Source: Lentisphaerales bacterium
Lineage (GTDB): Bacteria; Verrucomicrobiota; Kiritimatiellia; SPBP01
Assembly: GCA_032123355.1 (NCBI GenBank)
Contig: JAQBFM010000100.1
Coordinates: 3,944 to 67,943, forward strand
Reading direction: 5' to 3'
Length of the DNA stretch: 64,000 nucleotides
The position numbers and the translations under genes are program-made. The notes below the pieces were generated by a model. That model ran no database searches. It had not been told where the DNA came from and saw only the letters and a list, made by a program, of their open reading frames with translations. Positions 17,185-59,528 of the stretch are shown here, in pieces; positions within the stretch are counted from its first letter, which is position 1; every line of letters starts with the position of its first letter.

Positions 17185-17805
17185 TTACGGAGCCCCGTCG
17201 TAGTACGCGTCCGGAGGTTCAACAATGAAACGCGAAGCATTGTCCTTTTCGAGCTTGCCGGACACCGGAGTGCGGCGGCGCGGCCCACCGTACCTGCTGA
17301 GGGCCGATACTGCGAAGACCAGAATGAATAGAATCCCGATACCAATTGACAGGACTTTCCACGGATCTTCAGAGAATGCAGCCCTGATTCTGCGTCCCAG
17401 GCCAAGTATGCGTATTCCACGAAATGGACTCAGCGCCTGCCAGTCAATCCGTGAGCGACGTCCGTCTTTCTCCGTCTCTCTTTCCCCGTCGACTGTTGAC
17501 CCGATATCGCTACACAGGGAAGGAGGTGTCCCACCGTCGACCTGTGCCACGTAATCATCTATAAGCGGATCGGGATCGAGTCCGAGGTATTCCGCATACA
17601 TCCTGATGAAACCTTTGCCGTATATGGGTGCGGCAATTCTGGAGAACTCCTCGTTCTCGAGATCCTGGATAGTCTGGATCTTTATTCGAGTTGCAGCCGC
17701 TGCCTGCGACTCGGACACCTTCTTCTTCTGCCGTGCTTCCCGGAGTGTTCTGCCAAGTGTCACTCTTTCACGCCCCTCTTGCCGACCAACGCCGGCAGGC
17801 TGCAT
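17185..17805 (-). CDS. HTH (XRE-like) membrane protein, RodZ-like architecture
   Basis: N-terminal HTH (LGRTLREARQKKKVSESQAAAATRIKIQTIQDLE), a single TM helix (ILFILVFAVSAL) and a C-terminal extracytoplasmic tail. The start ATG overlaps the ftsK stop by 1 nt. Confidence 0.5.
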   Translation of the reverse strand: MQPAGVGRQEGRERVTLGRTLREARQKKKVSESQAAAATRIKIQTIQDLENEEFSRIAAPIYGKGFIRMYAEYLGLDPDPLIDDYVAQVDGGTPPSLCSDIGSTVDGERETEKDGRRSRIDWQALSPFRGIRILGLGRRIRAAFSEDPWKVLSIGIGILFILVFAVSALSRYGGPRRRTPVSGKLEKDNASRFIVEPPDAYYDGAP

Positions 17806-20177
17806 CAGACCTCTTCGTTCTCTGACAACGGCTCGGAAGCCCCATAATCTTCGTCCTCTGAAGACTGTCCCGCATTATCACCGTCAAGATCAATCAGAAT
17901 CTCACGCGGGTCCGAGCCGCGCGGCGGCCCGACTATGCCTCGCTCTTCAAGGATATCCATCATCCGAGCGGCGCGCGTATATCCTATGCGCAGCCTTCTC
18001 TGGAGCGAAGACGTGGATGCCCTGTGGGTCTCCCTGATAATCTGGATTGCCTGCTCCAGCATACCATCGTCTTCGCCGGTATCGATGGACTTGGCCCCCT
18101 TGTGATTGAGAATCTTGTCATGAATCGTCACGTCATAGTTCGACGTACCATTGTCCCTGATAAAGTCGCACACACGTTTGATTTCGGGGTCTGTCACCAT
18201 GGCGCCCTGTGCGCGGATCAGCCGGTTGCTTCCTGCCGGGAGAAACAGCATATCACCGCGACCAAGCAGCTTGTCCGCACCGTTCGCGTCAAGGATAGTA
18301 CGGCTATCCACCCGCTGCGCCACCTGGAAAGCAATCCGCGCCGGGAAGTTCGCCTTGATGGTACCCGTAATGACGTTTACGGATGGTCGTTGCGTGGCCA
18401 GGATCATGTGAATGCCTACTGCACGGGAGAGCTGTGCAAGCCGCGCGATGCAGTTCTCTATATCGGCCTGGGCAACAAGCATGAGGTCGGCAAGTTCGTC
18501 GACACATATGACCACGTAGGGAAGGCGGGGAGGCATTTCTTCGGCGGCATCTGCGCCATCCGCCTCGAACAGCTCCTGTTGCCTCGGGATTGCCCGGCTG
18601 TTGTAACCTTCGATGTTTCGCACTCCCGCCTTTGCGAACAGCTTGTAGCGCTTTTCCATTTCGTTGATTGCCCACCTCAGGCCAATCGCCACCTTATGCG
18701 GATCGGTAATAACTGGAACAACGAGGTGCGGCAACCCGTTATAGGCCGAGAGTTCGACGATCTTCGGATCAACAAGCATGAGCCTGAGCTGGTCCGGCGT
18801 TCTCGACATTAGCAGACCCATCAGGATGGAGTTCATGCAAACCGTTTTTCCCGAACCCGTGGACCCCGCGACAAGCAGGTGCGGCATCCCAGCCAGATCG
18901 GCAATAATATCATGTCCGGCCACATCTTGCCCTAGCACAAGAGGAAGAGCCGCGGTTCCCTTTTCCCATTCCTCACCCTCGAGAATCTCGCGGAGGAATA
19001 CCTTGCTGGTCGTAGTGTTAGGCACCTCGATGCCGACAACGCCCTTGCCCGGAACCGGAGCCTGTACTCTTACGCTTGTTGCCTTGAGCGCCAACGCCAG
19101 ATTATTGCTTAGACCCGCAATTCGTTCGACACGGACCCCGGGTGCCGGCCTCAACTCATAGCGGGTTACGGCAGGGCCCTGGTCAAAGTTCGTGACTTCT
19201 ATTTCAATGCCGAATTCGGACAGCGTCTCTTTCAGAATACGGCTCGTCGTGGTGACATCGCTGCTCATGGCCCGATCCTTTGCAGGCGGCAGGTCATCGA
19301 GTAGATTCAGGCCCGGCAATTCATACTGCGGGCCCTCCTCAGATTCCGGATCGGTACGCCTGGGTGCGGGTTGAGCATTCTTCTCATCTTTCGCCGTCAC
19401 TGGTTCAGTCGGCTCCGATACCGCGGGTTCCGGTGTCGGTGGTGTCTTCACCGGTTTCTGCTTCTTCCTGCGTGCTCGCTTCTCTTCTTTCCGAACGCTC
19501 TCCTCCAAGCGTGATTGTTGCTTCTGGAGCAGGCGCTGCTCCCGCTCTATCTGTTCTTGCTTGCCTCGCCGAGACGCTACCCACTCCGAGATGCGACCGA
19601 GCAGGTACCGTGTTCCCGCAACGCTGAGAGTGTAAAGACGCCTGATCGTTCCGCCGCCGGCCAGCATGACCCCCGAAGCCGCAAGAATCAGCCATGAAAG
19701 TATTTCGGTGCCGGCTGCCCCACTTACGCGTTCCACAAAGAGGCGCCGCGCAATCAGCCGGGCCGGTATCCCACCCGCGTGCGGCATGTTCAGCCGGGCG
19801 CACACCTCCTGCAGCTGTTCCCGCCTGAGTTCCAAAAGGCTCAAGAGAGCACAGGTGAAGAGAAGAGCCCACAGCACTTTGCCAAGCAGACGCGTGTCGG
19901 GTTTCAGCAGGAGGAGCAGGCCGAATGCAGCACACCAGAACGGAACAATCGCGGACCCGCATCCCGTCAGAAGCAGCAGCCCATAGGATGCATACGCGCC
20001 CGCAGGTCCGAAACAATTGCGCGCAGGCTGATTATGCTCCGCACGCAGAGTGGGAATATCGTGCCAATCGTACGTAACGAGACTGAGCAGCAATACGAAT
20101 CCCATTACGAGGAGAATTCCACCCCATGTCTGTCGAAGACCTGTTCGCATGTTACCGTCGACACTCCCCCGTACCAT
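17805..20177 (-). CDS. ftsK: DNA translocase FtsK/SpoIIIE
   Basis: N-terminal 4-TM region, Pro/Glu-rich linker, motor domain with Walker A GSTGSGKTV, and a C-terminal gamma (winged-helix) domain. Confidence 0.9.
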   Translation of the reverse strand: MVRGSVDGNMRTGLRQTWGGILLVMGFVLLLSLVTYDWHDIPTLRAEHNQPARNCFGPAGAYASYGLLLLTGCGSAIVPFWCAAFGLLLLLKPDTRLLGKVLWALLFTCALLSLLELRREQLQEVCARLNMPHAGGIPARLIARRLFVERVSGAAGTEILSWLILAASGVMLAGGGTIRRLYTLSVAGTRYLLGRISEWVASRRGKQEQIEREQRLLQKQQSRLEESVRKEEKRARRKKQKPVKTPPTPEPAVSEPTEPVTAKDEKNAQPAPRRTDPESEEGPQYELPGLNLLDDLPPAKDRAMSSDVTTTSRILKETLSEFGIEIEVTNFDQGPAVTRYELRPAPGVRVERIAGLSNNLALALKATSVRVQAPVPGKGVVGIEVPNTTTSKVFLREILEGEEWEKGTAALPLVLGQDVAGHDIIADLAGMPHLLVAGSTGSGKTVCMNSILMGLLMSRTPDQLRLMLVDPKIVELSAYNGLPHLVVPVITDPHKVAIGLRWAINEMEKRYKLFAKAGVRNIEGYNSRAIPRQQELFEADGADAAEEMPPRLPYVVICVDELADLMLVAQADIENCIARLAQLSRAVGIHMILATQRPSVNVITGTIKANFPARIAFQVAQRVDSRTILDANGADKLLGRGDMLFLPAGSNRLIRAQGAMVTDPEIKRVCDFIRDNGTSNYDVTIHDKILNHKGAKSIDTGEDDGMLEQAIQIIRETHRASTSSLQRRLRIGYTRAARMMDILEERGIVGPPRGSDPREILIDLDGDNAGQSSEDEDYGASEPLSENEEV

Positions 20178-20179
20178 TC

Positions 20180-20800
20180 TCAGTCAAGCCCGCTTTCATC
20201 TTCGGTCACACCCGCCGCTCTCAGGCACCGTCTCAACAGGTTGCCATACTCAGCAAAATTGGAGGCCCCTCGCATCTTCGCTCCCGCAAAGACTATTCGC
20301 GCAATGCGCACCGCCTTATCATGGTTCCCTAGCTGGTAGTGAGCCTCTGCGAGCGTCCCCAGCATGTTGAGATCGCTCGGCTGCGCGAGCACGGCTTCCC
20401 TGGCATACCGAAGACCACGTTTAGGATTTCTGATACTTGGATCCGTGGACTTAATCAGTATCCACGCCAGGTTGTTCTTCACCTCTGGCTTGTCGGGAAA
20501 CTCCTTCTCCAGTTGCTCAAGACGCTCAAGTGCCTCGCGGAATTGACCTGTTTGAATCAACGCCGTTCCAAGCAGAAACTGGCTTTCCTCGTCCTTCGGC
20601 CTGAGTTCTATCGCGCGTCTGAAGATCTTCTCGGCTCGGGCCCAGTCACCCTTGCGAGTAGCGTCCTTGGCGGTCCTCAAGAGCTCAACGAAATCAGGAT
20701 CCTTGCTCTCGCCCCCCTCCGTAGCAATTTGCGCGAGCGCAACCGGCGAGATCAGGATGAGCATGCTTGCAACTGCAACAACTGGGCTACAACGATTCAC
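20180..20800 (-). CDS. Secreted TPR-repeat protein
   Basis: Signal peptide (ASMLILISPVALAQ) followed by 3-4 TPR units. Confidence 0.65.
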   Translation of the reverse strand: MNRCSPVVAVASMLILISPVALAQIATEGGESKDPDFVELLRTAKDATRKGDWARAEKIFRRAIELRPKDEESQFLLGTALIQTGQFREALERLEQLEKEFPDKPEVKNNLAWILIKSTDPSIRNPKRGLRYAREAVLAQPSDLNMLGTLAEAHYQLGNHDKAVRIARIVFAGAKMRGASNFAEYGNLLRRCLRAAGVTEDESGLD

Positions 20801-21773
20801 GAAGCACCACCTTTACCTGCGCGGGTTCTGTAGTTACCAAGACGTTGGCGTCCTTCAATACGTGAACTGTCAGGGGCAGATCATACGTTGCAGACATGTC
20901 TAATCCTATGCAGTCTACGAGTACTTTGAAATCCTCTGCCTTGATCGACTCAAGCTCCTCGGTACTGCCCGACATTACAACGTCGACGGAAACCGGGCGG
21001 ATATCAACACTCACGGGCGCGGTGGATCTCAGCAACGCACCGACGGAAACGCCAGCCCACCGGCGAACCGCCGGCTTTTTCTCAATGGTAACCCTTACCC
21101 GTACTTCCGCAGGCTCAATCTGCGCGCCCCAGTTCTCGCCCGGTGACAAAACACGCACTAGCTTGCTGAACGATTCCGATATCCCGGCTACATCCACATC
21201 TTCGGTCTTGGCAATATATCCGCCGAGCACCAATTCGTTCAGCACCTGTTTGGGCCCTCGAATTATGACATGTGGCGGATCGCACGACATGGACATCACC
21301 TGGCCAACAGCCGGCTTGCCTTTGTACGCAGCCTTACATAGGAACTGACTTTCCATTTCTTCATCCAAGCGGATTGTTACGCTGTCCGGTTTGACCCTGA
21401 TTGCCCTGACCTCGCCGGGGCTCTCAATGTGCTTAGGCTGAATCTCGATGGTCAGTTCCTTCGCAGGGGCCCTCTCCCTGGCATACACGACTGCCCTGAT
21501 CTGGCCGCTGGCCTGCGCCTGTTCCAACCGCTCTATGTCCTGCTGGGCTCCCTTGAAGGTCACCGAAACTTGTCTCTCCGACTGCCATAGAACGGCGATA
21601 CCATCTCTGGCGCGCACTTCGACAGGTACGTCATGGACCACCTTTGTGACGCCGATCACGCCCCTGATCGAGTACCAGACAATAACGGCAAGCAGAAGTG
21701 ACAGAATTTTGATCGACTTGTTCTCGACAAAGAATCTGCCGACAATGGTGTTCTTAATCGACGGCATCAGCAT
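20787..21773 (-). CDS. cdaR: YbbR-like domain protein, CdaR-type regulator of diadenylate cyclase
   Basis: N-terminal TM (ILSLLLAVIVWY) plus tandem YbbR-like beta domains; overlaps the cdaA stop and sits immediately downstream of it, as in cdaA-cdaR operons. Confidence 0.65.
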   Translation of the reverse strand: MLMPSIKNTIVGRFFVENKSIKILSLLLAVIVWYSIRGVIGVTKVVHDVPVEVRARDGIAVLWQSERQVSVTFKGAQQDIERLEQAQASGQIRAVVYARERAPAKELTIEIQPKHIESPGEVRAIRVKPDSVTIRLDEEMESQFLCKAAYKGKPAVGQVMSMSCDPPHVIIRGPKQVLNELVLGGYIAKTEDVDVAGISESFSKLVRVLSPGENWGAQIEPAEVRVRVTIEKKPAVRRWAGVSVGALLRSTAPVSVDIRPVSVDVVMSGSTEELESIKAEDFKVLVDCIGLDMSATYDLPLTVHVLKDANVLVTTEPAQVKVVLRESL

Positions 21774-22605
21774 CCTCCTGTCGCGCCATGTGCTCGGACC
21801 TGGCGATTCCTCCCGGGGTCAGATCCAGTTGCTCTCTGGCGCGATCCCAGGAACTCTTCTGTTTCCGACCTTTGGCGAGAATTCTCGTGAGGAACCTTCT
21901 CAGCCGGTCCGCATCGAGATCCTGGCTCAGTCGACCCCTGAAACCCACAGAAATCGTCCCGGTTTCCTCTGACACGACAACTACCACCGCGTCCGTCTCT
22001 TCCGTAAGACCTATGGCTGCCCTGTGCCTCATTCCGAGTGCCTTGCTCATGTCTGAGCGTTGCGTCAACGGAAACAAGCACCCCGCCGCAACGATTCTGT
22101 CGGCCCGGATTATTACGCCGCCGTCATGCAGGGGAGTATGCGGGAAGAATACGGTAGCAAGCAGGGAGGCCTCAACACGACTATCGAGCTTCGTCCCGGT
22201 TTCCTGGACCGACCTCGTGCCAATCTCCCCTTCTATGGCAATCAGCGCCCCTATCCTGCGTTCGGCAAGCAAGACTACCGCCTGCACGATCTTGTCGACA
22301 GTGTTCTTGTTTGACTCCGGAGCCACGAAAACGTGCTGCTTGCCCAACTCGGCAAGTGCTCGCCTGATCTCCGGCTGGAAGATGATCAGGAACGCGGCCG
22401 CAAGATAGACTGAAAGCCTGCGGAGTAACCAGTTGAGCACCTCCAGGTGCAGGGCCCTGGTTCCAACGAAGAGCACCAGCATGACCAGAATCAAGCCGGT
22501 CAACACCTGCGCGCTGCGCGTCCCCCTGAAAAAGAGAAATACGTAGTAAAACAGGCATGCAAGCAGGACAATCTCAAGCAAACCCATCACAGGGAACGAA
22601 TACAT
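21754..22605 (-). CDS. cdaA: Diadenylate cyclase CdaA (DisA_N/DAC domain)
   Basis: Three N-terminal TM helices followed by a DAC domain (GALIAIEGE, DGGVIIR, HRAAIGLTE, RGT-like). Confidence 0.85.
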   Translation of the reverse strand: MYSFPVMGLLEIVLLACLFYYVFLFFRGTRSAQVLTGLILVMLVLFVGTRALHLEVLNWLLRRLSVYLAAAFLIIFQPEIRRALAELGKQHVFVAPESNKNTVDKIVQAVVLLAERRIGALIAIEGEIGTRSVQETGTKLDSRVEASLLATVFFPHTPLHDGGVIIRADRIVAAGCLFPLTQRSDMSKALGMRHRAAIGLTEETDAVVVVVSEETGTISVGFRGRLSQDLDADRLRRFLTRILAKGRKQKSSWDRAREQLDLTPGGIARSEHMARQEDADAVD

Positions 22606-43078: not shown

Positions 43079-43221
43079 GTTGAAGATTGATCCGATCCCT
43101 GTTCTTACTACGTTTTCCGGGCTGAACTTCTTTGGGAGCTACGCTGATCGATGTTGTTTGGCATCAAAATACGAGTGTGCTAAGATCACCATGGTTGACA
43201 ATGATGATCGGGCCGACTCAC

Positions 43222-43587
43222 ATGAATGCAATGAATCACTGCAGGTCCCAACGCCGAGCAGGCGGATTCACTCTTGTCGAAATAATGATCGTGGTCGGCA
43301 GCATCGGGCTCCTGTCAATGATGGCCGTGCCGGCCTTCATTCGCGCGCGTGACGAAAGCAAGGTGTCGCGTTTCATCAACGACATGCGCGTGGCTACCGA
43401 AGCCTTCCATCTCTACAACCTGGAGAACGGCGACTATCCGCCCGATGCTATGCACGGAGAAATGCCGGTGGGTATGGCGGGCTATCTGGCCAAGATGGAT
43501 GTGAATGGCGATTCCAGCATTAGCATACCCGGTCTCCGCTCCGCAGCCAGCCATGAGGCAATTGAAGCTCCCAGAGATCGGCCGTAA
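43222..43587 (+). CDS. Prepilin-type N-terminal cleavage/methylation domain protein (minor pseudopilin/T2SS GspG-like), 121 aa
   Basis: Leader MNAMNHCRSQRRAG, then the class III signal GFTLVEIMIVVGSIGLLSMMAVPAF with a Glu at +5. Confidence 0.65.
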   Translation: MNAMNHCRSQRRAGGFTLVEIMIVVGSIGLLSMMAVPAFIRARDESKVSRFINDMRVATEAFHLYNLENGDYPPDAMHGEMPVGMAGYLAKMDVNGDSSISIPGLRSAASHEAIEAPRDRP

Positions 43588-43715
43588 ACAACTGATAATG
43601 CCAACAATTTGACGAATTGTTTGCGGGACATGACCAAGAGGTCGCGACGAGAGGGCCTCGGCAATTGTTGGATTCCAGACCTCCTGACATAGGGGCATGA
43701 CATTTTGTCCGCTTT

Positions 43716-44543
43716 TCACCGTTTTCTGACCTCGGCAACGTCGTAGCGCAGGATCAGATTGGTGCCAGGAAACGTGGTCGCCGTCGCGTTCAGTTCACCG
43801 CAGAGCGTTGCGAGCACACGGGTGCGGTGCCGTGAACTCAGCGGTGCGACCAGAACCCGTAGTTCCGTCTCGCTCACCTCAATATCCGCCGCAGATGCGA
43901 GCGCCGACTGGACAAGCGTACGGCCCTCGTCCTCTGCGCGCTTGTAGTGTGGCGTGACCAGTCGAAAGAGGTCGCTCTCCACTTGATAGGCGACCATCTT
44001 CAGCAGACTGGTGAGGTGCATGCTCTCGGTAGCGAGTTTAACCACTGGCCCGGCAACAACCTGCCCGGCGGGGAACGGCTGCGCGTCGGAGTTCCAGTGT
44101 TTTGCAGCGCTTCACCGCTGCTCGGGCCTGCCGAAGCTGTCTGTTCAGCATGTTCCACTTTGGATTGGGAACTTCGCGCGCGGGATCGTCAGGTTCCGTC
44201 TCGTACTCGACAAGTGCATCTGCGCCACGTTCGTGGTGCGCAGCCCGAAAAACGCCGGACCGATGCTGCCGTAGACTTCATGGGCAGAGTCGATGACGTC
44301 ACTGGCAACTAACACGGGAATAGCCAGGAGCACTCCGGCGCCAGGAATCGACGTCCCCGGACGAAAGAGCTGAGCCGCGTCATCAAGTAAACCCAGGTAT
44401 GCCATGAGTCGGTCGAACCGGCGGTCCGACGGATCGCGGTCCATCGAGGCGATCAGCAGCAGGTCGGATAATGGAAAAACGGACAGTTTTGGGTCCGAGC
44501 CCTCGAAGCAGCGGGTGGGGCTTGTCACGGGAACTTCAAACAA
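43716..44543 (-). pseudogene. Frame-broken gene remnant(s); the N-terminal piece has an IDSxxxxYGS motif reminiscent of the first catalytic-D region of DDE transposases (identification tentative)
   Basis: Two same-strand ORFs in different frames (44543..44145 and 44045..43716), with competing short ORFs on the other strand. No RBS or start context, unlike the tightly packed genes elsewhere. Confidence 0.3.
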
Positions 44544-44786
44544 CCGTTTGGACCAATATCCACGGCCTGTGCGTGATAATGGAGGTGGAAACTGTCAGAG
44601 CGAAAAAGACGCCCTATGTCAGGAGGTCTGGAGTCAGGAAGGGCTGGCATGCACGTAATGAGGTCGCGGGTATCGTGCCGACGAAACTTACACCAGATGT
44701 TTCTGCGAACCAATGGGTTGAGCCATCTATTGCTGGCCCGTCCGGCTCACACGAAGACCGCATTCCCGCGGTTTCCTGACTCTCGA

Positions 44787-48579: not shown

Positions 48580-50133
48580 TTATAGCAGCACCTTCCCGGT
48601 CAAACAAGTTGAACTGGCGACAACCAGAGGATCGACGGAATGCGGCTGCGCAAGCAGTTCGTTGATCGCTGCCGCTGCGGTCCGGCCCTGCCCCATCGCC
48701 AGAATGACCGTGGCGGCGCCGAGTACGATATCGCCGCCGGCATATACCCGATCCAGCGATGTGCTGCCGTTCTCGTCCGCAATAATGTTGCCCCACTTAT
48801 TGGTGTCCAGGTCGGGCGTGGTCTGCTTCAGCAGCGGGTTGCTCTCGTTCCCGATAGCGACAATGACGGCATCAACGTCGATGACAAATTCGCTTCCGGC
48901 TATCACCACGGGCCTGCGCCGTCCCGAATCGTCTGGCTCTCCGAGTTCATACTTAAGGCATTCCATGCCGATTACCTGATGGGCATCGTTGCCGAGTATC
49001 CGTTTTGCATTCTGAAGGAGATGAAAAATAACGCCTTCTTCCTTCGCATGCTGCACTTCCTCGACCCTCGCGGGCATTTCTGCCTCGGTCCGCCGGTACA
49101 CGAGGTGTACTTCGTCGGCGCCGAGTCGCACGGCGGTCCGGGCGGAGTCCATGGCAACATTGCCGCCACCAAGAACAGCCACCTTCCTGGCATTGATAAT
49201 GGGAGTATCTGCTTTCTCTCGATCATATGCCTTCATCAAGTTAGAGCGGGTGAGAAACTCATTGGCCGACAGAACTCCTGCAAAATCTTCGCCCGGTATA
49301 TTCAGGAACTTCGGCAAGCCGGCTCCACTTCCGATGAAAATCGCATCGAAGCCGTCTTTGTCTATCAAGTCCTTGAGCTTCCGCGTTCTCCCGACGACAA
49401 AGTTTGTGACAAGTTCCACGCCCATCGCCTTCAATGCGTTCGCTTCTGCTTCGACAATCTTCTTAGGGAGCCTGAATTCCGGAATGCCATAAACCATAAC
49501 GCCGCCAGGTTTGTGGAACGCCTCGAATACCGTGACGGCGTGACCCTCGCGGCGTATGTCGGCCGCCGCTGTAATGCCTGCCGGCCCACTGCCGACTACG
49601 GCCACTTTCTTGCCCGTCTCCGGTTTGATGAAAGGCAGGCTGGCGGCGCCGGATTCCCGCTCGAGATCGGCAACAAACCGTTCGATGCGCCCGATGCCGA
49701 CGGCCTTATCGACATCTTTCAATGTCTTGCCGACGGTACATTCGAGCTGGCACTGCGCCTCCTGAGGACAAACTCTTCCGCACACAGAGGGCAGGAGGCT
49801 GCTGGCCTTGATTATATCAATCGACTTCTTGAAATCCCCCTCAGCCGCTGCATGGACGAAGCCGGGTATGTCGATGCGTACGGGACAACCCTTCACGCAC
49901 GGTGCGTTGCGACATTGAATGCAACGCAATGCTTCAACCTGGGCCTGCTCGGCCGAGAAGCCCAGCGCCACCTCGTTCATGTTACTGCGCCGCTGGACAG
50001 CGTCCTGTGCCGGCATGTCCTGCGAGGGTATTGCAAGCCGGTCCTTCGGCTTAAGCGGATCCTTTCTGTTCAGCAGATCCGCAAGGATCTTGCCCGCTTC
50101 ATCGCGAAGTTGATCGCGCGTCTTGTGGCTCAT
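48580..50133 (-). CDS. GltD-family NAD(P)H-dependent oxidoreductase (glutamate synthase small-chain-like / NfnB/SudA-like) with N-terminal Fe-S binding region
   Basis: Cys clusters (CIQCRNAPCVKGCP, CGRVCPQEAQCQLEC) and two Rossmann GxGxxG motifs (VAVVGSGPAG, VAVLGGGNVAMD). Confidence 0.75.
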   Translation of the reverse strand: MSHKTRDQLRDEAGKILADLLNRKDPLKPKDRLAIPSQDMPAQDAVQRRSNMNEVALGFSAEQAQVEALRCIQCRNAPCVKGCPVRIDIPGFVHAAAEGDFKKSIDIIKASSLLPSVCGRVCPQEAQCQLECTVGKTLKDVDKAVGIGRIERFVADLERESGAASLPFIKPETGKKVAVVGSGPAGITAAADIRREGHAVTVFEAFHKPGGVMVYGIPEFRLPKKIVEAEANALKAMGVELVTNFVVGRTRKLKDLIDKDGFDAIFIGSGAGLPKFLNIPGEDFAGVLSANEFLTRSNLMKAYDREKADTPIINARKVAVLGGGNVAMDSARTAVRLGADEVHLVYRRTEAEMPARVEEVQHAKEEGVIFHLLQNAKRILGNDAHQVIGMECLKYELGEPDDSGRRRPVVIAGSEFVIDVDAVIVAIGNESNPLLKQTTPDLDTNKWGNIIADENGSTSLDRVYAGGDIVLGAATVILAMGQGRTAAAAINELLAQPHSVDPLVVASSTCLTGKVLL

Positions 50134-50140
50134 GTGGAAC

Positions 50141-50998
50141 TCACTGCCCAGCTTCTTTTCGCTGCGCTGCCATGTCAAGATGGCATTGTTCGTGTGCATC
50201 TTCTTCCTGTTTTCTATAGGCACCAAGCCGTTTCATGAAGCCATCGAAATCCACGAGGTGTCCGTCAAATTCTGGACCGTCCACACAGGTGAACATGGCC
50301 TTCCCTCCGACAGTCACTCTGCAGCCACCGCACATGCCGGTTCCATCCATCATTATCGCGTTAAGCGAGACGACGGTGTGAATCCCGTATGGCCGTGTTG
50401 TCTCGGCGCAGAACTTCATCATGATCGGCGGTCCTATGGCGACGACGAGATTGGGGGCGGTGGCTCGTTCGCACAGTTCCTTCAGTGGCTCTGTCACAAG
50501 GGCCTTCCGGCCGTAGCTGCCGTCGTCGGTGCAGACTATCAATTCATCCGAAACCGCCTTCATCCGGTCTTCCAGAATGACAAGGTCACGTTGTCGTGCC
50601 CCGAGTATCGTAACCAGGTAATTCCCGGCCCGTTTCATGCCCTGCGCTATGGGATGAAGCGGCGCCACTCCTATGCCGCCGCCTACACAGACTACGGTGC
50701 CGAACTTGGCGATATCCGTCGGTTTCCCGAGCGGCCCCACAAGGTTCTCTATGATTTCGCCTTCCTCCAAGTCAGCCAGCTTATGCGTGGTCTTGCCGAC
50801 TACCTGGAAGATGAGCGTAATCGAACCTTCGACCGAATCAGCGTCTGCTATGGTCAGAGGAATGCGTTCTCCGAAATCGGAATCAAGCTGAAGAATAACA
50901 AATTGGCCGGGCCTACGCTCCTGAGCAATAAGCGGGGCTTCGACACGAATCATGTAAACTTCTTCTGATAACTTCGCCTTGTTTATGATTCGGTTCAC
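50141..50998 (-). CDS. PyrK-like FAD/NAD(P)-binding 2Fe-2S oxidoreductase subunit (NfnA/SudB-like)
   Basis: Ferredoxin-NADP reductase-like fold (RPGQFVILQ, GGGIGVAPL) and C-terminal CGGCRV cysteine cluster. Lies immediately upstream of the GltD-like gene, as in nfnAB/sudBA. Confidence 0.7.
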   Translation of the reverse strand: MNRIINKAKLSEEVYMIRVEAPLIAQERRPGQFVILQLDSDFGERIPLTIADADSVEGSITLIFQVVGKTTHKLADLEEGEIIENLVGPLGKPTDIAKFGTVVCVGGGIGVAPLHPIAQGMKRAGNYLVTILGARQRDLVILEDRMKAVSDELIVCTDDGSYGRKALVTEPLKELCERATAPNLVVAIGPPIMMKFCAETTRPYGIHTVVSLNAIMMDGTGMCGGCRVTVGGKAMFTCVDGPEFDGHLVDFDGFMKRLGAYRKQEEDAHEQCHLDMAAQRKEAGQ

Positions 50999-55214: not shown

Positions 55215-56186
55215 TCATTCGTGCCGCGTCGCATTCCCAGTCATGAGCGAGTTGATCATCCGTACTACGATTCTGCCGACGAGCTGCATGCTCTCCCCGC
55301 TGATCTTGTCGAGCGTATCATGCTCAGTATGCCAGTAGTCGTTGAGTCCGGGGGTGGATCCATACTGGAAATCGATTATGTCGACAGCGGGCATCCCCGC
55401 AGCAAGAAAAGGAACATGGTCATCAAGCACGGCGCTGTTGCTGAGCCGGAAAGCGGATCTGGCCCCCTCCTCCCGGGCAGCAGAGAAGACGATGGAACAC
55501 AACGATGGTGTGCTATTGCGCGGCAATTCCACGTTCAGCCTCTTGTCACCGATCATGTCGACCACTATGACGCCCAGCACAGCGGCCGCACGTCCGTCTT
55601 CCTTCAACCGTCTTGCCAGGCGCCGGCTTCCGTGCAATCCGTCATTCTCGGAGTATTCACGCACACATTCTTCGCCGTCAAAGAAGGCGAGCATGATACT
55701 GCATTCTGGTTTCGGTCCAACACTCAGCACGCGCGCCAACTCAAGGAGTAACCCCGTGCTGGAACCTGAATCGTTGGCGCCATTGAAAGACTCGCTGATC
55801 CCTGCCTTCGTGTCGTAATGTGAGCCGAGCACAATCAGGCCAGCCGTCTTTCCCTTAATGATTCCAACCACATTCCGGTAAATACCCCGCCTGTCCCCCG
55901 GGCCATCTTCGAACTCATCAATTTCTGTTTCGATCTTCATGGATCGAAGCGCGGATGCAATGTGGTTCGCAGCCTTTTCAGCGCCGGCAGTTCCTGAAGA
56001 CCGTGGCCCAATTGCCAGTAGTTCCCGGACACGTTCAAATGCTCGGGCGCCATCCACGGAGGCCGGATCCAAGGCAACGGGGGCAGGTATAGTCTCGGCG
56101 CTGTTCGGCCGTCCGCCGCACCCGATAATCACACAAGCGAAGCAGGGAATAATCAAAACCACATACGACAACAGGGACCTTCTCAT
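55215..56186 (-). CDS. M28-family zinc aminopeptidase, probable lipoprotein
   Basis: Lipobox-like CVIIGCGG, then M28 metal-binding blocks (HYDTK, NDSGSSTG, FFDGEE, H near the C-terminus). Confidence 0.7.
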   Translation of the reverse strand: MRRSLLSYVVLIIPCFACVIIGCGGRPNSAETIPAPVALDPASVDGARAFERVRELLAIGPRSSGTAGAEKAANHIASALRSMKIETEIDEFEDGPGDRRGIYRNVVGIIKGKTAGLIVLGSHYDTKAGISESFNGANDSGSSTGLLLELARVLSVGPKPECSIMLAFFDGEECVREYSENDGLHGSRRLARRLKEDGRAAAVLGVIVVDMIGDKRLNVELPRNSTPSLCSIVFSAAREEGARSAFRLSNSAVLDDHVPFLAAGMPAVDIIDFQYGSTPGLNDYWHTEHDTLDKISGESMQLVGRIVVRMINSLMTGNATRHE

Positions 56187-57094
56187 CTTCCGGGATCGTC
56201 CTGTCCGTCCGACAAACCCAGCAAGTCAAGAATCCTGTTAAGGTCGTCTACAGAGTAGAAGTCTATTTCCATCCTGCCCCTGACCTTCTTGCCATTTGCC
56301 AGAGTGCGGCATGGCACGACTTTCACTCCGGTACCAAACCGGCTCCGCAGCATATCCGTCACATGATTGAGCTGCTGCAACGGAATATCATCTCGCCTCG
56401 GCCGTGGCTTTCTGGGTGACCTCTTGAATTTCTCGACGAGCTTCTCTAGGTTCCTCACAGAAAGATCTTCTTTGACAGTCTGAAGAGCCAGAAGCACCTG
56501 CTCTTCGGGAATCTCGATGCCTAGCAACACTTTTGCATGTCCCTCGGAAAGCCGACCTTCCCCTATAAGTGTCGTAATTTCGTCGGGCAACCCGAGTATC
56601 CTCATCCTGTTGGCCACCGAGGCCCGCGGTTTTCCCACCCTGTCGGCGATCTGCTCCTGGGTCATTCCAAATCTGTCGGCAAGCGTTTTGTATCCCCGTG
56701 CTTCTTCGAGTACATTCAGGTCTTCGCGCTGCAGGTTCTCGACCAGGGCGAGTTCCAGCGTCTCCTGGTCCGAGACATCAAGAACAATCACTGGGATCTC
56801 TGTAAGCCCCGCGGTTCGTGCGGCTCTGTATCGCCGTTCCCCGGCAACAAGCTCGTACCCCGTGCCCTTTGCGCGCACAAGTAGCGGCTGGACAACCCCC
56901 CGCTCCTTAACAGAACGGACAAGATCCTCCATTGCCTCGTCCGCAAAAGTCTGCCTGGGCTGAAGTGCGCTTCTGGATACACTGTCTATGCTGACCGCCA
57001 TGCCCATCAACCCGCCGGCTGCCGGGCTCTCGTCACTGGGCTCATCCTTGATCAAAGCGCTCAAGCCGCGCCCCAAGCCACCTCTAGCCATCAT
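56183..57094 (-). CDS. parB: Chromosome partitioning protein ParB/Spo0J
   Basis: ParB N-domain (GVVQPLLVR...YELVAGERRYRAA), HTH (GMTQEQIADRVGKPRASVANRMRILGLP) and C-terminal dimerisation region. Confidence 0.85.
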   Translation of the reverse strand: MMARGGLGRGLSALIKDEPSDESPAAGGLMGMAVSIDSVSRSALQPRQTFADEAMEDLVRSVKERGVVQPLLVRAKGTGYELVAGERRYRAARTAGLTEIPVIVLDVSDQETLELALVENLQREDLNVLEEARGYKTLADRFGMTQEQIADRVGKPRASVANRMRILGLPDEITTLIGEGRLSEGHAKVLLGIEIPEEQVLLALQTVKEDLSVRNLEKLVEKFKRSPRKPRPRRDDIPLQQLNHVTDMLRSRFGTGVKVVPCRTLANGKKVRGRMEIDFYSVDDLNRILDLLGLSDGQDDPGR

Positions 57095-57139
57095 TATGCA
57101 GTACCTCCCGGTATCGGACCGACGGTGGCCCGGCCTTCT

Positions 57140-57847
57140 TCATGCCACGTCAAGTGTTGCGTTGAGACCGGCACCATTTTCGACAACAAGATGCTTCCCA
57201 CAGACCTTGCCAAGCAGGTGACCTGTCGAACGGATCATGACGATGCCGGAGGCAACTATACTCGCTGAGAGCTTACCGGCAACATCGATATTGCGGAATC
57301 TTATCTCTGTTTCGAATGATAGGCTTGCATCGTCTCTCACAATCAAGTCCCTGGCATCAACCACTTCCGGCTTGAACCGCCCACCGGCGCGCGCTTCAAG
57401 CCGCCCGATCACCTGTGTCTTTCCCCCTTCTATGCTGCCGGCAAGAATAACGTTCCCAGCGACGATCTTTCCCCCACCGACAACGCCTTTCTCCGTTATG
57501 TGGACAGTGCCGATAGTCTTGATATTCCCAGCCCATCGCTTGTCCAGACTGTATTCAGTGGCAACCAGGGCAGACTTGCATTTCGGGCAGAATGTATCCT
57601 TCAGAAGCCCTGTAATCACAAACCCGTATCTGCATTCGTAGCACTCGACATTGTGTCGCGTCGGCTGCGTGGTATGGTCGATCCTGGTTTTCGGGGAGCG
57701 AGCTGGTTCGGGCTTGGGTTTTGAGGATGCTTCGCCCGCCTTTTGCGTCGTCGTCTTGGGGCTCTTACCAGAGGTAACGGCACGCTGCGCCGCCTTCATC
57801 GTGGTAAAACCGTCGACGATGTCGTTCTTGCTCCGCCGTTTAGCCAT
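57140..57847 (-). CDS. Bactofilin-domain protein with N-terminal Lys/Pro-rich disordered region and a CxxC...CxxC zinc ribbon
   Basis: Start MAKRRSKN...; zinc ribbon CYECRYGF...CPKCKS; beta-helical bactofilin repeats (GNVILAGSIEGG, IVASGIVMI). The longer ORF upstream overlaps the next gene. Confidence 0.55.
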   Translation of the reverse strand: MAKRRSKNDIVDGFTTMKAAQRAVTSGKSPKTTTQKAGEASSKPKPEPARSPKTRIDHTTQPTRHNVECYECRYGFVITGLLKDTFCPKCKSALVATEYSLDKRWAGNIKTIGTVHITEKGVVGGGKIVAGNVILAGSIEGGKTQVIGRLEARAGGRFKPEVVDARDLIVRDDASLSFETEIRFRNIDVAGKLSASIVASGIVMIRSTGHLLGKVCGKHLVVENGAGLNATLDVA

Positions 57848-57968
57848 CTGGCTTCCTTCCCGGGCGGTGCACAACTGCGACCGTACTACTGTTCTGCAGG
57901 ACGCTATGCACCTTTCGGTTCGCGCGACGTCCTGGAGCGACACGCGGACAGACCCCGGACTCCATAGG

Positions 57969-58418
57969 TCAGCGTCGACCCAGAAGGCCGGATCGCCCTT
58001 TCTCGGAGCCTTTGTCAGAATCCAACTCCGCTTCGGCGGAATGCTCGACTGCAGGCTCTGGCGTCGCGCGCGCCCCGGAAACACCGGACGGGTTCACTTC
58101 GGCCTTACCCACGAAACTCACGCCGTCCTCAACAGCAAGGCGCTTGGCTTTGACGTCGCCATTAATCCGGGCTGCTGCTTTCAACTCAATCCGGTCTTTC
58201 GCGACTATATTCCCCATCACTTGCCCCTGGATAGATGCGCAGTTGACCGACAGGTTGCCTTTGATGTTGGCGTTCTTGCCGACGATCACATCGCTGCTGC
58301 AGATGAGATCACCGTTGAGTTTTCCGTCAATACGAAAAGCGTTTGCAGCTTTTATTGTGCCGACAATCTCGACATCTTCCGTGATGATTGTCTGCACGGC
58401 ACCACCCTGGCTATCCAT
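57969..58418 (-). CDS. Bactofilin (canonical, ~149 aa)
   Basis: MDSQGG..TIITEDVEIVGTIKA..FRIDGKLNGDL bactofilin signature, then a Ser/Glu-rich tail. Confidence 0.75.
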   Translation of the reverse strand: MDSQGGAVQTIITEDVEIVGTIKAANAFRIDGKLNGDLICSSDVIVGKNANIKGNLSVNCASIQGQVMGNIVAKDRIELKAAARINGDVKAKRLAVEDGVSFVGKAEVNPSGVSGARATPEPAVEHSAEAELDSDKGSEKGRSGLLGRR

Positions 58419-58460: not shown

Positions 58461-59528
58461 TTACGGATACTGGCCCGGCCTATCCAGGCCCATCGTTTCG
58501 GGAAGGCCGAACAGAAGATTCATATTCTGAAGGGCGTTGCCGGCCTGCCCCTTGACAAGATTATCGATGTACGAAACAACCCGCATTATGTTTGTCCGTG
58601 GGTCAACACTGACCACGAGACTGCAGCAATTCGTTCCCCTGACGTCGGATGAACTTGCAGCCACATCACTGCGGGACACCTTCACGAACGCGTCATCGGC
58701 ATAGCGGTTGCAGTAGAGCTCGAACAGCCGGTCTTCAGTGAGATCTTTTGTCAGCTTGCCGTAGAGCGTCGACATGATGCCACGGCAAACGGGTACAACC
58801 TGCGCCGTGAAAGTGATCTTCGTCTCAGCATTGCACAAGAGACCCAATTCGCGTTCGATCTCACAGACGTGCTGGTGACCCGACAGCCTGTAGGCATTCA
58901 TTGTCTGGTACCTTGCGGGATAGTGGAAAGCCGCGGCCGGCTTCTTGCCGGCTCCAGACACACCGGTCTTGCAGTCGCAGATCATGGTGCCGGGTTCGAG
59001 CAACGCCTGCTCAACTGCAGGTGCCAGACCCAATATGCAACTCACGGCGAAACATCCCGGATTCCCAACCAGCCGCCGATCTTGTGTGATGTCATCCCTG
59101 TGCAATTCCGCGAGGCCGTAAACACTGGTTGGAAGCAGATCGGGCGAAACGTGGTCGACGGGACGGCCGATCCTTCGGGCGTATTCAGCGTAGCTTTCCC
59201 TCGAATTGAACCGAAAATCGCCGCTGTAATCTATCACCTTAGCGCCGCTTTCAAGGATGTTCCCCGCCAGTTTCATCCCAACTCCATCCGGTGTCGCCAG
59301 AAACACCACGTCTACAGGTTCCGCTGCTACGGGATCCGAAGGATCAATGATGGGCATATCGCAATGCCCCCGAAGATGAAGATATATGTCGCTTATCGGC
59401 TTGCCAATGTCTGCCACATCAACGAGACACGCTATTTCTGCCTCGGGGTGACCCAAAAGCAGTTCCGTCATGCCGACGCCGCCGTATCCGCCGGCACCTA
59501 TTATCTTTGCCCTGATCATCTTGCGCAC
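58461..59528 (-). CDS. argC: N-acetyl-gamma-glutamyl-phosphate reductase
   Basis: Rossmann IIGAGGYGG N-terminus and catalytic Cys in GNPGCF. Confidence 0.9.
   Translation of the reverse strand: MRKMIRAKIIGAGGYGGVGMTELLLGHPEAEIACLVDVADIGKPISDIYLHLRGHCDMPIIDPSDPVAAEPVDVVFLATPDGVGMKLAGNILESGAKVIDYSGDFRFNSRESYAEYARRIGRPVDHVSPDLLPTSVYGLAELHRDDITQDRRLVGNPGCFAVSCILGLAPAVEQALLEPGTMICDCKTGVSGAGKKPAAAFHYPARYQTMNAYRLSGHQHVCEIERELGLLCNAETKITFTAQVVPVCRGIMSTLYGKLTKDLTEDRLFELYCNRYADDAFVKVSRSDVAASSSDVRGTNCCSLVVSVDPRTNIMRVVSYIDNLVKGQAGNALQNMNLLFGLPETMGLDRPGQYP

What the first reader, a model, noticed from the sequence alone, without database searches (positions are those of the whole stretch)
56183..58418. 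Two bactofilin genes directly upstream of parB on the same strand, with no parA in the window
The canonical arrangement is parA-parB. Here the two genes upstream of parB on the same strand are bactofilins, and no ParA/Soj-type Walker ATPase gene occurs anywhere in the 64 kb. One bactofilin is canonical (57969-58418). The other (57140-57847) is a fusion of a Lys/Pro-rich disordered head, a CxxC...CxxC zinc ribbon and a bactofilin beta-helix. In Myxococcus xanthus, bactofilin scaffolds position the ParABS machinery through the adaptor PadC. A genomic linkage of bactofilins to parB suggests a comparable scaffold-based segregation or polar-anchoring module. The zinc-ribbon bactofilin fusion is unusual. 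The downstream neighbour is an M28 peptidase, so this is not the usual oriC-proximal context.
Basis: partly seen in the sequence, partly recalled or inferred. Interest (0 to 1): 0.65.

Follow-up and report, generated by a model that had tools for sequence, protein, structure and literature searches.

The report
Bactofilin pair co-transcribed with parB
Two cytoskeletal bactofilin genes, one carrying an undescribed zinc-ribbon head, sit directly upstream of a normal chromosome-partitioning parB gene in a Lentisphaerae genome; the layout is real and inherited across a whole clade, but sister lineages pair the same bactofilins with a cell-wall gene instead, so a role in chromosome segregation is possible but unproven.

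Summary
On the minus strand lie argC, a canonical bactofilin (BacA), a zinc-ribbon bactofilin (here called BacZ), a full canonical ParB and an M28 lipoprotein peptidase. Spacers are short and no terminator was predicted between them. No ParA-type gene occurs in the 64 kb window or in the 10 kb beyond its right end.

The organism is a Lentisphaerales MAG. BacA–BacZ is an invariant gene pair found in Lentisphaerae and Kiritimatiellae. BacZ is not a one-off: the family has about 200 clusters at 50% identity, and 156 of 157 sampled members carry CxxC-x14/15-CxxC.

The gene downstream of the pair varies. It is parB in one monophyletic BacZ clade (at least 8 loci) and murC, with a 4-nt overlap, in two other clades (5 loci). 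The parB linkage therefore looks like one ancestral rearrangement. The equally conserved argC and M28 genes show that membership of this operon says little about function.

None of 8 sampled ParB contexts has parA nearby. Yet all 120 closest ParB homologues keep the ParA-binding motif, so parA is probably elsewhere rather than absent.

The closest precedent is Myxococcus BacNOP–PadC. A scaffold-for-ParB role is plausible (about 0.3). A general cell-envelope or cell-cycle scaffold is at least as likely.

The parts
58461..59528 (-). argC (N-acetyl-gamma-glutamyl-phosphate reductase). It is the first gene of the co-directional cluster, 42 nt upstream of bacA.
   Evidence: Hits Pfam Semialdhyde_dhC_1 (E 1e-46) and Semialdhyde_dh. 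It is also a conserved upstream neighbour in L007, L012, L014, L020 and L022. A promoter-like site lies at 59643-59615 on the minus strand, and no minus-strand terminator was predicted between argC and the M28 gene.
57969..58418 (-). bacA: canonical bactofilin, 149 aa. The bactofilin domain spans residues 10-106. It lacks the usual N-terminal MFSKKKK-type membrane-targeting peptide. It has a conserved C-terminal G-hydrophobic-(F/L)-G-(K/R)(K/R) tail; in the window this is GLLGRR at 57972-57989.
   Evidence: PF04519 E 8e-26, 90.6 bits against a cut-off of 27.9. Orthologues are 49-71% identical and always lie immediately upstream of bacZ in 16 loci. The membrane-targeting consensus comes from PMC12448750.
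57140..57847 (-). bacZ (name used here): zinc-ribbon bactofilin, 235 aa.
   Evidence: PF04519 E 5e-13. The AlphaFold2 model has mean pLDDT 81, with residues 60-234 mostly above 90. The best Foldseek PDB hit is the Thermus thermophilus bactofilin 6rib, probability 1.0. The family has 199 cluster representatives at E<=1e-30. A GGAAGGAAG ribosome-binding site precedes the ATG.
57776..57823 (-). BacZ residues 9-24 (DIVDGFTTMKAAQRAV): a conserved N-terminal helix motif (DG[FY]...AA.RA). It is a candidate partner-binding peptide.
   Evidence: G13, F14 and A19 are invariant in alignment A1, and G13 and A19 are nearly invariant in the 44-member A2. The model predicts a helix at residues 16-24. The low hydrophobicity gives no support for a membrane anchor.
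57674..57775 (-). BacZ residues 25-58: disordered, Lys/Pro-rich basic linker.
   Evidence: pLDDT is below 50. Across 156 family members, the whole region N-terminal of the zinc ribbon has a median net charge of +6. Some members add histone-H1-like AKKP tails with net charge up to +58.
57578..57655 (-). BacZ residues 65-90: His65 followed by a C4 zinc ribbon (CYEC-x14-CPKC). [quoted passage not shown]
   Evidence: C69, C72, C87 and C90 are invariant in 44 of 44 sequences. CxxC-x14/15-CxxC is present in 156 of 157 members. Only sub-threshold matches to generic zinc-ribbon Pfam families were found. pLDDT is 86-95 with no linker to the helix.
57146..57553 (-). BacZ residues 99-234: bactofilin beta-helix. 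At about 135 aa it is longer than the roughly 100-aa canonical domain.
   Evidence: Strand pattern and pLDDT above 90. The Pfam Bactofilin match is in two stretches. Foldseek hits 6rib, 6ria and 2n3d.
56183..57094 (-). parB: canonical chromosomal-type CTP-dependent ParB, 303 aa. It lies 45 nt downstream of bacZ, in the same frame, and is preceded by a GGGAGG ribosome-binding site.
   Evidence: Pfam ParB_N plus HTH_ParB plus weak ParB_C. TIGR00180 at 180 bits against 58; below the Noc cut-off. The best solved relative is ParB 7bnk (E 1e-56, 50% identity over 199 columns). Sequence.
57062..57076 (-). ParB residues 7-11 (LGRGL): the ParA-binding motif.
   Evidence: It matches (L|F|I)G[K|R]G(L|F|I), as defined in PMC12704722. 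The motif's role in ParA binding is described in PMC12462528. It is present in 120 of the 120 closest homologues.
56831..56842 (-). ParB residues 85-88 (GERR): CTP-binding Box II. The QPR motif (56954-56962) and ENLQRED (56720-56740) are also intact.
   Evidence: Positions. The motifs align with the solved ParB 7bnk. GERR is present in 120 of 120 homologues.
55215..56186 (-). M28-family peptidase with a lipoprotein signal peptide (lipobox IIGC, residues 20-23). Its start codon overlaps the parB stop codon (ATGA).
   Evidence: PF04389 E 1.5e-32. Overlap seen, lipobox. The parB-M28 pairing is conserved in L007, L011, L012, L014 and L019, and is interrupted by an insertion in L016 and L017.

Best explanation
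The locus is a mixed housekeeping gene cluster, argC-bacA-bacZ-parB-M28, inherited vertically within one Lentisphaerae/Kiritimatiellae clade.

The functional unit relevant to the finding is the invariant bacA-bacZ pair. The two bactofilins most likely co-polymerise (inferred) into a nucleotide-independent scaffold. BacA supplies bulk polymer, possibly with a C-terminal basic-hydrophobic tail. BacZ supplies a client- or polyanion-binding head made of a conserved helix, a basic Pro/Lys linker and a C4 zinc ribbon stacked on the end of its beta-helix.

The scaffold's primary role is most likely spatial organisation of the cell envelope or cell cycle. That is the role of most characterised bactofilins, and it fits the tight coupling of the same pair to murC in sister clades.

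The adjacency to parB arose once, after parA and parB had already been separated in this lineage. It is retained largely by descent and co-transcription. ParB itself is an ordinary CTP-dependent parS clamp that still works with a ParA encoded elsewhere.

Shown: gene identities, domain architecture, synteny pattern, monophyly of the parB-linked forms, and motif conservation. Inferred: co-polymerisation, the client-binding role of the BacZ head, and the existence of a distant parA.
For: - **Invariant pair.** bacA lies immediately upstream of bacZ in all 16 distinct loci examined.
- **Variable downstream gene.** It is parB in the window, L007, L011, L012, L018, L019, L021 and L022. It is murC, with a 4-nt overlap, in L010, L023 (a cultured isolate with a complete genome), L024 and L025, and murC about 80 nt downstream of bacZ in L009. 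It is unrelated genes in L008.
- **Single origin.** In an NJ tree all parB-linked BacZ proteins form one clade.
- **Independence within one genome.** In one MAG (JAHIZV01), bacA-bacZ-murC (L009) and a lone parB (L027) lie on different contigs.
- **Unrelated operon partners.** argC and a secreted M28 lipoprotein are conserved in the same cluster, although a shared function with ParB is implausible.
- **No ParB adaptation.** ParB orthologues from bactofilin-linked and unlinked genomes show no systematic difference.
- **Likely distant parA.** The ParA-binding motif and GERR are kept in 120 of 120 homologues. That motif co-evolves with parA (PMC12704722).
- **Split parAB is not rare.** About 23% of chromosomal parB genes lie outside parAB operons.
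- **Literature prior.** Bactofilins organise peptidoglycan enzymes in Hyphomonas (PMC10945521), Borrelia (PMC13393453), Caulobacter (PMC12448750) and the PVC bacterium Chlamydia (bioRxiv 10.1101/2020.10.19.346502).
Against: - The murC adjacency is subject to the same "conserved by descent" caveat as the parB adjacency, so it is weak positive evidence for a cell-wall role.
- The bacZ-parB spacing is very tight in several lineages: -4 nt in L011, +1 in L022, +9 in L007 and L012. The neighbourhood also survives an inversion in L014. This would fit selection for co-expression.
- Polybasic histone-H1-like tails and a zinc ribbon suggest DNA binding rather than recruitment of peptidoglycan enzymes.
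- M. xanthus shows that bactofilin scaffolds can hold ParB-parS complexes (PMC5703909).
- No experiment exists for any member of this family.
Confidence: 0.45

Rival explanations
1. Scaffold-for-ParB module. BacA/BacZ polymers would anchor or position the ParB-parS partition complex, and perhaps ParA. The basic, zinc-ribbon head of BacZ would act as a built-in adaptor, combining the roles played in M. xanthus by the BacP tail and PadC. Co-transcription with parB would set the stoichiometry.
For: - bacZ and parB are adjacent on the same strand, with spacers from -4 to +45 nt, in at least 8 loci. BacZ identity in these falls to 32% and ParB identity to 52%.
- The two genes remain neighbours after an inversion in L014.
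- The gene order, bactofilins followed by a ParB-fold protein, parallels bacNOP-padC. In addition, bacM follows parAB in M. xanthus (PMC5703909).
- BacZ carries basic disordered segments and a zinc ribbon, features compatible with DNA or partner binding.
Against: - The parB-linked BacZ proteins are monophyletic, so this is effectively one observation.
- Sister clades couple the pair to murC and keep parB elsewhere, sometimes within the same genome.
- Basic tails occur equally in murC-linked members.
- ParB shows no clade-specific adaptation.
- No BacZ-ParB fusion was seen among the 8 unusually long members checked out of the 150 listed representatives.
- In M. xanthus no direct bactofilin-ParB binding was detected.
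- No parS-like site occurs within the window or any locus.
Confidence: 0.3
2. ParA-independent segregation. The clade would have lost ParA altogether, with the bactofilin scaffold replacing ParA as the device that positions or anchors ParB-parS. ParB's other job would be SMC loading.
For: - No parA lies within 8-10 kb of parB in any of 8 sampled contexts, and none occurs in the 64 kb window or in 27 fetched loci.
- ParB-only species are known (own knowledge: Streptococcus pneumoniae and Staphylococcus aureus).
Against: - The ParA-binding motif LGRGL is invariant in the 120 closest ParB homologues. This motif is strongly enriched in ParBs that have a ParA partner and is usually absent from orphans (PMC12704722).
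- Half of the sampled ParB contexts have no bactofilin nearby either.
- Whole genomes could not be searched.
Confidence: 0.07
3. This parB is a secondary, orphan paralogue with a non-segregation role (Noc-like, regulatory, or belonging to a mobile element), while a standard parAB operon lies elsewhere in the genome.
For: - It lies outside a parAB operon and has no parS within 64 kb.
- Orphan ParB-like proteins are common.
Against: - It has the full canonical architecture with all CTP and ParA-binding motifs.
- It is 50% identical to a solved chromosomal ParB and scores below the Noc cut-off.
- Orthologues at 55-64% identity are the only ParB seen in many relatives, always in housekeeping contexts with no mobile-element genes.
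Confidence: 0.08

Closest known systems
Myxococcus xanthus BacNOP-PadC scaffold organising ParABS (PMC5703909; bioRxiv 10.1101/2020.06.17.156356)
   Same: - Several co-encoded bactofilins are followed on the same strand by a gene for a ParB-fold protein.
- One bactofilin carries a specialised basic, disordered client-binding extension. In M. xanthus this is the BacP C-terminal tail with its KKKVVVKK motif (PMC12448750).
- Bactofilin genes are genomically linked to the partition system; bacM also lies directly downstream of parAB.
   Different: - The downstream protein here is the complete canonical ParB (ParA-binding motif, HTH, dimerisation domain). It is not a PadC-type adaptor, which has a ParB/Srx domain only behind a long disordered N-terminus. 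PadC was not among the PDB sequence hits.
- The specialised bactofilin has an N-terminal C4 zinc ribbon, which no Myxococcus bactofilin is described as having.
- parA is not nearby.
- The organisms belong to the PVC group, whose cultured members are cocci (own knowledge), not rods with subpolar scaffolds.
- The function here is untested.
Bactofilin scaffolds for peptidoglycan remodelling: Caulobacter BacA/B-PbpC, Hyphomonas BacA-LmdC (PMC10945521), Borrelia (PMC13393453), Chlamydia trachomatis BacA (bioRxiv 10.1101/2020.10.19.346502)
   Same: - Paired or co-encoded bactofilins lie next to cell-wall genes. In sister clades bacZ overlaps murC; in the window an Amidase_3 gene lies about 1.3 kb upstream.
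- There is a PVC-superphylum precedent in Chlamydia.
   Different: - The characterised clients are membrane-bound synthases or hydrolases recruited by short cytoplasmic tails. MurC is a soluble cytoplasmic ligase and has not been described as a bactofilin client.
- BacA and BacZ lack the usual N-terminal MFSKKKK membrane-targeting peptide.
- The zinc ribbon and polybasic tails have no counterpart in these systems.
Chromosomal parB genes encoded outside a parAB operon ('orphan' ParBs; PMC12704722)
   Same: parB has no adjacent parA, a situation found for about 23% of chromosomal parB genes.
   Different: Typical orphans lack the ParA-binding motif and are often on mobile elements or divergent. 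This one keeps the motif, the CTP motifs and a housekeeping context, so it looks like a split parA / parB pair rather than a true orphan.

Membership tests
Bactofilin (PF04519 / DUF583) | Profile match above Pfam's curated cut-off | tested here: met
   BacA scores 90.6 bits and BacZ 49.6 bits against a cut-off of 27.9. All 44 sampled BacZ family members match.
Bactofilin (PF04519 / DUF583) | Right-handed triangular beta-helix fold | tested here: met
   The BacZ AlphaFold2 model is a beta-strand solenoid over residues 99-234 with pLDDT above 90. The best PDB match is the T. thermophilus bactofilin 6rib at probability 1.0, although with a weak E-value of 0.015 and TM-score 0.51 normalised to the target.
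Bactofilin (PF04519 / DUF583) | Nucleotide-independent polymerisation; N-terminal MFSKKKK-type membrane-targeting peptide in most members | tested here: not met
   Polymerisation cannot be tested with these tools. Neither BacA (MDSQGGAVQ...) nor BacZ (MAKRRSKNDIV...) has the consensus membrane-targeting peptide at its N-terminus (consensus from PMC12448750). This feature is common but not obligatory for the family.
Canonical chromosomal ParB (TIGR00180; ParB_N + HTH_ParB + ParB_C) | Three-domain architecture and family model above cut-off | tested here: met
   PF02195 E 1e-31, PF17762 E 2e-34, PF23552 weak. TIGR00180 at 180 bits against 58.45. 50% identical to the solved ParB 7bnk.
Canonical chromosomal ParB (TIGR00180; ParB_N + HTH_ParB + ParB_C) | CTP-binding motifs (QPR / GERRxRA / ENLQR) and N-terminal ParA-binding motif (L|F|I)G[KR]G(L|F|I) | tested here: met
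   QPR at residues 45-47, GERR at 85-88, ENLQRED at 119-125 and LGRGL at 7-11. The motif definition comes from PMC12704722.
Canonical chromosomal ParB (TIGR00180; ParB_N + HTH_ParB + ParB_C) | parS sites (TGTTNCACGTGNAACA) near the gene or origin | tested here: not met
   There were 0 matches with up to 3 mismatches in the 64 kb window. None occurred in the related loci apart from one 3-mismatch chance-level hit in L023. The rest of the genome was not searchable.
parAB operon (ParABS system) | parA (deviant Walker A ATPase) immediately upstream of parB | tested here: not met
   No KGGxGK[ST] motif in the window and no tblastn hit to Soj. There is no parA within 8-10 kb of parB in 8 related contexts. 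Whether parA exists elsewhere in the genome cannot be tested with these tools.
PadC-type bactofilin-ParA adaptor | Long disordered N-terminus plus a C-terminal ParB/Srx domain only; encoded downstream of bactofilins; binds a bactofilin tail and ParA | tested here: not met
   The gene order resembles bacNOP-padC, but the protein is a complete ParB with HTH and dimerisation domains. PadC was not among the PDB sequence hits at E<=1e-5. Binding cannot be tested.
Noc (nucleoid occlusion ParB paralogue, TIGR04285) | Score above the family's curated cut-off | tested here: not met
   221 bits against a cut-off of 315.
Curated zinc-ribbon families (Zn_ribbon_4/8/19, DZR, HypA, zf-C3HC4_3 and others) | Profile match above the curated cut-off for the BacZ head | tested here: not met
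   Only sub-threshold matches were found. The best, in any of 44 members, is zf-C3HC4_3 at E 4e-4, and all are below the gathering scores. The four Cys are invariant, so metal binding is inferred, not shown.

The most novel reading that the evidence does not exclude
BacZ would be a new kind of bactofilin with a built-in adaptor. Its basic linker and C4 zinc ribbon, stacked on the polymerisation end of the beta-helix, would bind the nucleoid or the ParB-parS complex directly. BacA/BacZ filaments would then tether the chromosome origin in coccoid PVC bacteria. In the Lentisphaerae clade this would form a dedicated bactofilin-ParB module. It would merge the roles of the Myxococcus BacP tail and PadC in one protein and operate with a ParA encoded at a distance.
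Probability: 0.25. Interest if true: 0.7.

Novelty: new variant of a known kind. Interest (0 to 1): 0.42.

Why it matters
Bactofilins are widespread, but their clients are known in only a handful of species. Myxococcus is the only case in which they organise chromosome segregation.

A second, phylogenetically distant lineage with bactofilin genes fused into the parB transcription unit would test whether scaffold-based origin anchoring is a recurrent solution.

The BacZ family itself seems undescribed: the literature searches found no paper on a zinc-ribbon bactofilin. It has about 200 clusters at 50% identity, an invariant C4 zinc ribbon, basic tails that can reach histone-H1-like length, and is always paired with a canonical bactofilin. 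It is a concrete target for bactofilin cell biology in the little-studied Lentisphaerota and Kiritimatiellota. At least one cultured isolate (B12222; its form is murC-linked) encodes it.

The work also documents that parB is systematically separated from parA in this clade while keeping the ParA-binding motif.

Tried and rejected
- **Finding parA in the same genome.** No tool could search the MAG assemblies. The single genome-collection scan and all 12 contig look-ups went to synteny. The protein search lists only the best 120 hits, so a generic Soj query would not reach this clade. The question stays open.
- **parS.** A search with up to 3 mismatches in the window and in 27 loci, and a search for palindromes shared between loci, found nothing.
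- **oriC context.** There is no DnaA-box cluster (9 near-matches against 8.6 expected), no Rfam hit, and no dnaA, gidA or rsmG among the ORFs scanned. The cumulative GC skew reaches its minimum near 60 kb but was not interpretable on its own.
- **Rosetta-stone fusion of BacZ to ParB or MurC.** Unusually long family members carry only low-complexity basic tails.
- **Assigning the zinc ribbon to a known family.** Only sub-threshold Pfam hits and weak Foldseek hits to ribosomal zinc ribbons were found.
- **Membrane-anchor reading of the BacZ N-terminal helix.** The hydrophobic-moment calculation was inconclusive.
- **Metagenome scan.** It returned only 4 short loci.
- **Literature.** Searches for ParA/ParB in Lentisphaerae or Kiritimatiellae found nothing specific.

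Full report
**1. What is in the sequence**

All genes below lie on the minus strand.

| Gene | Coordinates | Key evidence |
|---|---|---|
| argC | 58461-59528 | Pfam semialdehyde dehydrogenase domains |
| bacA, canonical bactofilin (149 aa) | 57969-58418 | PF04519 E 8e-26 |
| bacZ, second bactofilin (235 aa) | 57140-57847 | PF04519 E 5e-13 |
| parB (303 aa) | 56183-57094 | ParB_N E 1e-31, HTH_ParB E 2e-34, weak ParB_C |
| M28 peptidase | 55215-56186 | PF04389 E 1.5e-32 |

- The spacers are 42 nt (argC-bacA), 121 nt (bacA-bacZ) and 45 nt (bacZ-parB).
- The parB stop codon overlaps the M28 start codon as ATGA.
- No minus-strand terminator-like site was predicted between argC and M28, and a promoter-like site lies upstream of argC.
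- Co-transcription is therefore likely but not shown.

**2. No parA nearby**

- No deviant Walker A motif (KGGxGK[ST]) occurs in any frame of the 64 kb window.
- A tblastn search with a Soj sequence written from memory found nothing.
- The 10 kb beyond the right end of the window encodes an S8 peptidase and radical-SAM enzymes.
- The rest of the window is ordinary housekeeping: SecA, FtsK, a RodZ-like HTH_25 protein, CdaA, TilS, SerS, MutL, Lnt, RF2 and Gmk, plus an FtsH-like AAA motif seen at about 24971 in the Walker A scan.
- There is no parS within 3 mismatches, no DnaA-box cluster and no Rfam hit.

**3. The ParB is canonical**

- It passes TIGR00180 (180 bits against 58) and fails the Noc model (221 against 315).
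- Its best solved relative is a chromosomal ParB, 7bnk (E 1e-56, 50% identity over 199 columns). I believe this entry is from M. xanthus, from memory.
- It carries QPR, GERR and ENLQRED.
- At residues 7-11 it carries LGRGL, which fits the ParA-binding motif (L|F|I)G[KR]G(L|F|I) (PMC12704722; its function is described in PMC12462528).

**4. The organism and the BacZ family**

- Identical proteins occur in Lentisphaerales MAGs: GCA_032123855.1, GCA_004525935.1 and GCA_032123875.1.
- An exhaustive profile search found 199 representatives (50%-identity clusters) at E<=1e-30, almost all full-length and 230-260 aa.
- Of 157 sampled members, 156 carry CxxC-x14/15-CxxC. The four cysteines are invariant in a 44-member alignment.
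- All source names refer to Lentisphaerales or Kiritimatiellae/Kiritimatiellota, including the cultured isolates B1221 and B12222.
- The AlphaFold2 model (pLDDT 81) has three parts:
  - a disordered basic N-terminus containing one conserved helix (DGF..AA.RA);
  - a zinc ribbon at residues 64-95;
  - directly joined to it, a beta-helix at residues 99-234 with pLDDT above 90.
- The best PDB fold match is the Thermus bactofilin 6rib.
- The ribbon matches no curated zinc-ribbon family above threshold.
- The region N-terminal of the ribbon has a median net charge of +6. Some members carry histone-H1-like AKKP tails with net charge up to +58.
- BacA orthologues lack the usual N-terminal MFSKKKK membrane-targeting peptide (PMC12448750). 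They share a C-terminal G-hydrophobic-F-G-K-K tail instead.

**5. Synteny**

bacA immediately precedes bacZ in every locus recovered. The downstream gene differs.

| Arrangement | Loci |
|---|---|
| parB downstream, same strand | window, L007, L011, L012, L018, L019, L021, L022 |
| parB-M28 convergent with bacZ-bacA-argC (inversion) | L014 |
| murC downstream | L009, L010, L023, L024, L025 |
| Unrelated downstream genes | L008 |

- In the parB-linked loci the bacZ-parB spacers run from -4 to +45 nt. BacZ identity falls to 32% and ParB identity to 52%.
- The contigs shared by P0002/P0010 and by P0007/P0011 probably add to the parB-linked set.
- murC overlaps the bacZ stop by 4 nt in L010, L023, L024 and L025. 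In L009 it starts about 80 nt downstream.
- L023 comes from the complete genome of isolate B12222.
- In an NJ tree of BacZ, all parB-linked proteins, including L014, form one clade. The murC-linked proteins fall in two other clades.
- L009 (bacA-bacZ-murC) and L027 (a lone parB) come from the same MAG.

**6. ParB-centred view**

- Eight ParB contexts at 55-100% identity were examined:
  - three are bactofilin-linked;
  - one is convergent;
  - four are unlinked: three have parB followed by an M48 peptidase and one has parB followed by an unknown gene.
- None has parA within 8-10 kb.
- No genuine deviant Walker A motif appears in 27 loci totalling 395 kb.
- All 120 closest ParB homologues keep the ParA-binding motif and GERR.
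- That motif co-evolves with an adjacent parA and is usually missing from orphans. The most economical reading is that parA still exists but has moved.
- About 23% of chromosomal parB genes lie outside parAB operons, so the split alone is not remarkable.

**7. Interpretation**

- The stable, presumably functional unit is the BacA-BacZ pair.
- Its linkage to parB appears to be a single ancestral event, maintained in an operon that also carries argC and a secreted lipoprotein peptidase. The operon therefore mixes unrelated functions, and guilt by association is weak.
- The alternative coupling to murC, together with the literature, gives a higher prior to a cell-envelope or cell-cycle scaffold. 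The relevant cases are the peptidoglycan-related bactofilins of Caulobacter, Hyphomonas, Borrelia and Chlamydia.
- In favour of a ParB link are the very tight spacing, survival of the neighbourhood through an inversion, BacZ's DNA-binding-like features, and the Myxococcus precedent. There bacM follows parAB, bacNOP is followed by padC, and BacNOP-PadC positions ParB-parS and ParA (PMC5703909).
- The two readings are not mutually exclusive, because bactofilin scaffolds can be multi-purpose (same paper).

| Reading | Probability |
|---|---|
| Envelope/cell-cycle scaffold with inherited parB linkage | about 0.45 |
| Scaffold with ParB as client | about 0.30 |
| This parB is a secondary paralogue | about 0.08 |
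| ParA replaced by the scaffold | about 0.07 |

**8. Comparison and novelty**

- The proteins are members of the bactofilin and canonical ParB families.
- The ParB is not a PadC-type adaptor and not Noc.
- A zinc-ribbon bactofilin was not found in the literature searched.
- The arrangement is a new variant of a known kind, namely bactofilin linkage to a ParB-fold gene.

**9. Limits**

- Whole-genome presence of parA, parS or a second parB could not be tested.
- Co-polymerisation, zinc binding and any BacZ client are inferred.
- The NJ tree is a quick distance tree without support values.

Noticed in passing
window 55215-56186 (-); also L007, L011, L012, L014, L019: The M28 peptidase has a lipoprotein signal peptide (lipobox IIGC), and its start codon overlaps the parB stop codon. 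The parB-M28 pairing is even more widely conserved than bacZ-parB. In L016 and L017 an M48 peptidase and a polyamine ABC transporter are inserted between the two genes. There is no obvious functional reason for a ParB/secreted-peptidase operon.
   Followed up: partly
window 57972-57989 (-) and BacA orthologues in L007-L014: BacA lacks the usual N-terminal bactofilin membrane-targeting peptide. It has instead a conserved extreme C-terminal motif, G-(F/L/V/M)-F-G-K-K/R. This looks like a membrane-targeting sequence moved to the other end of the protein.
   Followed up: partly
P0275 (495 aa), P0273 (404 aa), L025 10001-11008: Some BacZ family members carry very long histone-H1-like Ala/Lys/Pro repeat tails (net charge +25 to +58). 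This suggests binding to DNA or another polyanion. The tails occur in murC-linked as well as parB-linked members.
   Followed up: partly
L010 10675-12111, L023 10810-12105, L024 10786-12084, L025 11005-12297: In Kiritimatiellia the murC gene (Mur ligase) starts 4 nt before the bacZ stop codon, which indicates translational coupling of a soluble peptidoglycan-precursor ligase to a bactofilin. Whether this is the genome's only murC was not checked.
   Followed up: no
window 17185-20177 (-): A RodZ-like HTH_25 protein lies immediately downstream of ftsK. Next to them are a TPR protein, a YbbR-domain protein and the diadenylate cyclase CdaA (20180-22605). Together these form a second cluster of cell-cycle and cell-envelope genes in the window.
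   Followed up: no
window 43100-44780: This stretch of about 1.7 kb has no ORF of 150 aa or more on either strand and no Rfam match. It was not examined further.
   Followed up: no
window 48580-50238: Two ORFs longer than 530 aa overlap almost completely on opposite strands: 48640-50238 (+) and 48580-50226 (-). The public annotation of the same contig calls the 532-aa product, which has no Pfam hit. Which strand is actually coding was not verified.
   Followed up: no
window 519-3250 (+): An FHA-domain protein (455 aa) is followed, with overlapping stop and start codons, by a protein with five PEGA domains (455 aa). A small FHA protein also lies near the parB cluster in L012.
   Followed up: no
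PMC12704722, Dataset S1 (literature, not the window): Only 2 of 31 near-complete Victivallales species (class Lentisphaeria) are listed as having a chromosomal parB, against 9 of 10 Kiritimatiellales. ParB therefore appears dispensable in part of this lineage. That makes it a natural test set for whether BacZ depends on ParB.
   Followed up: no
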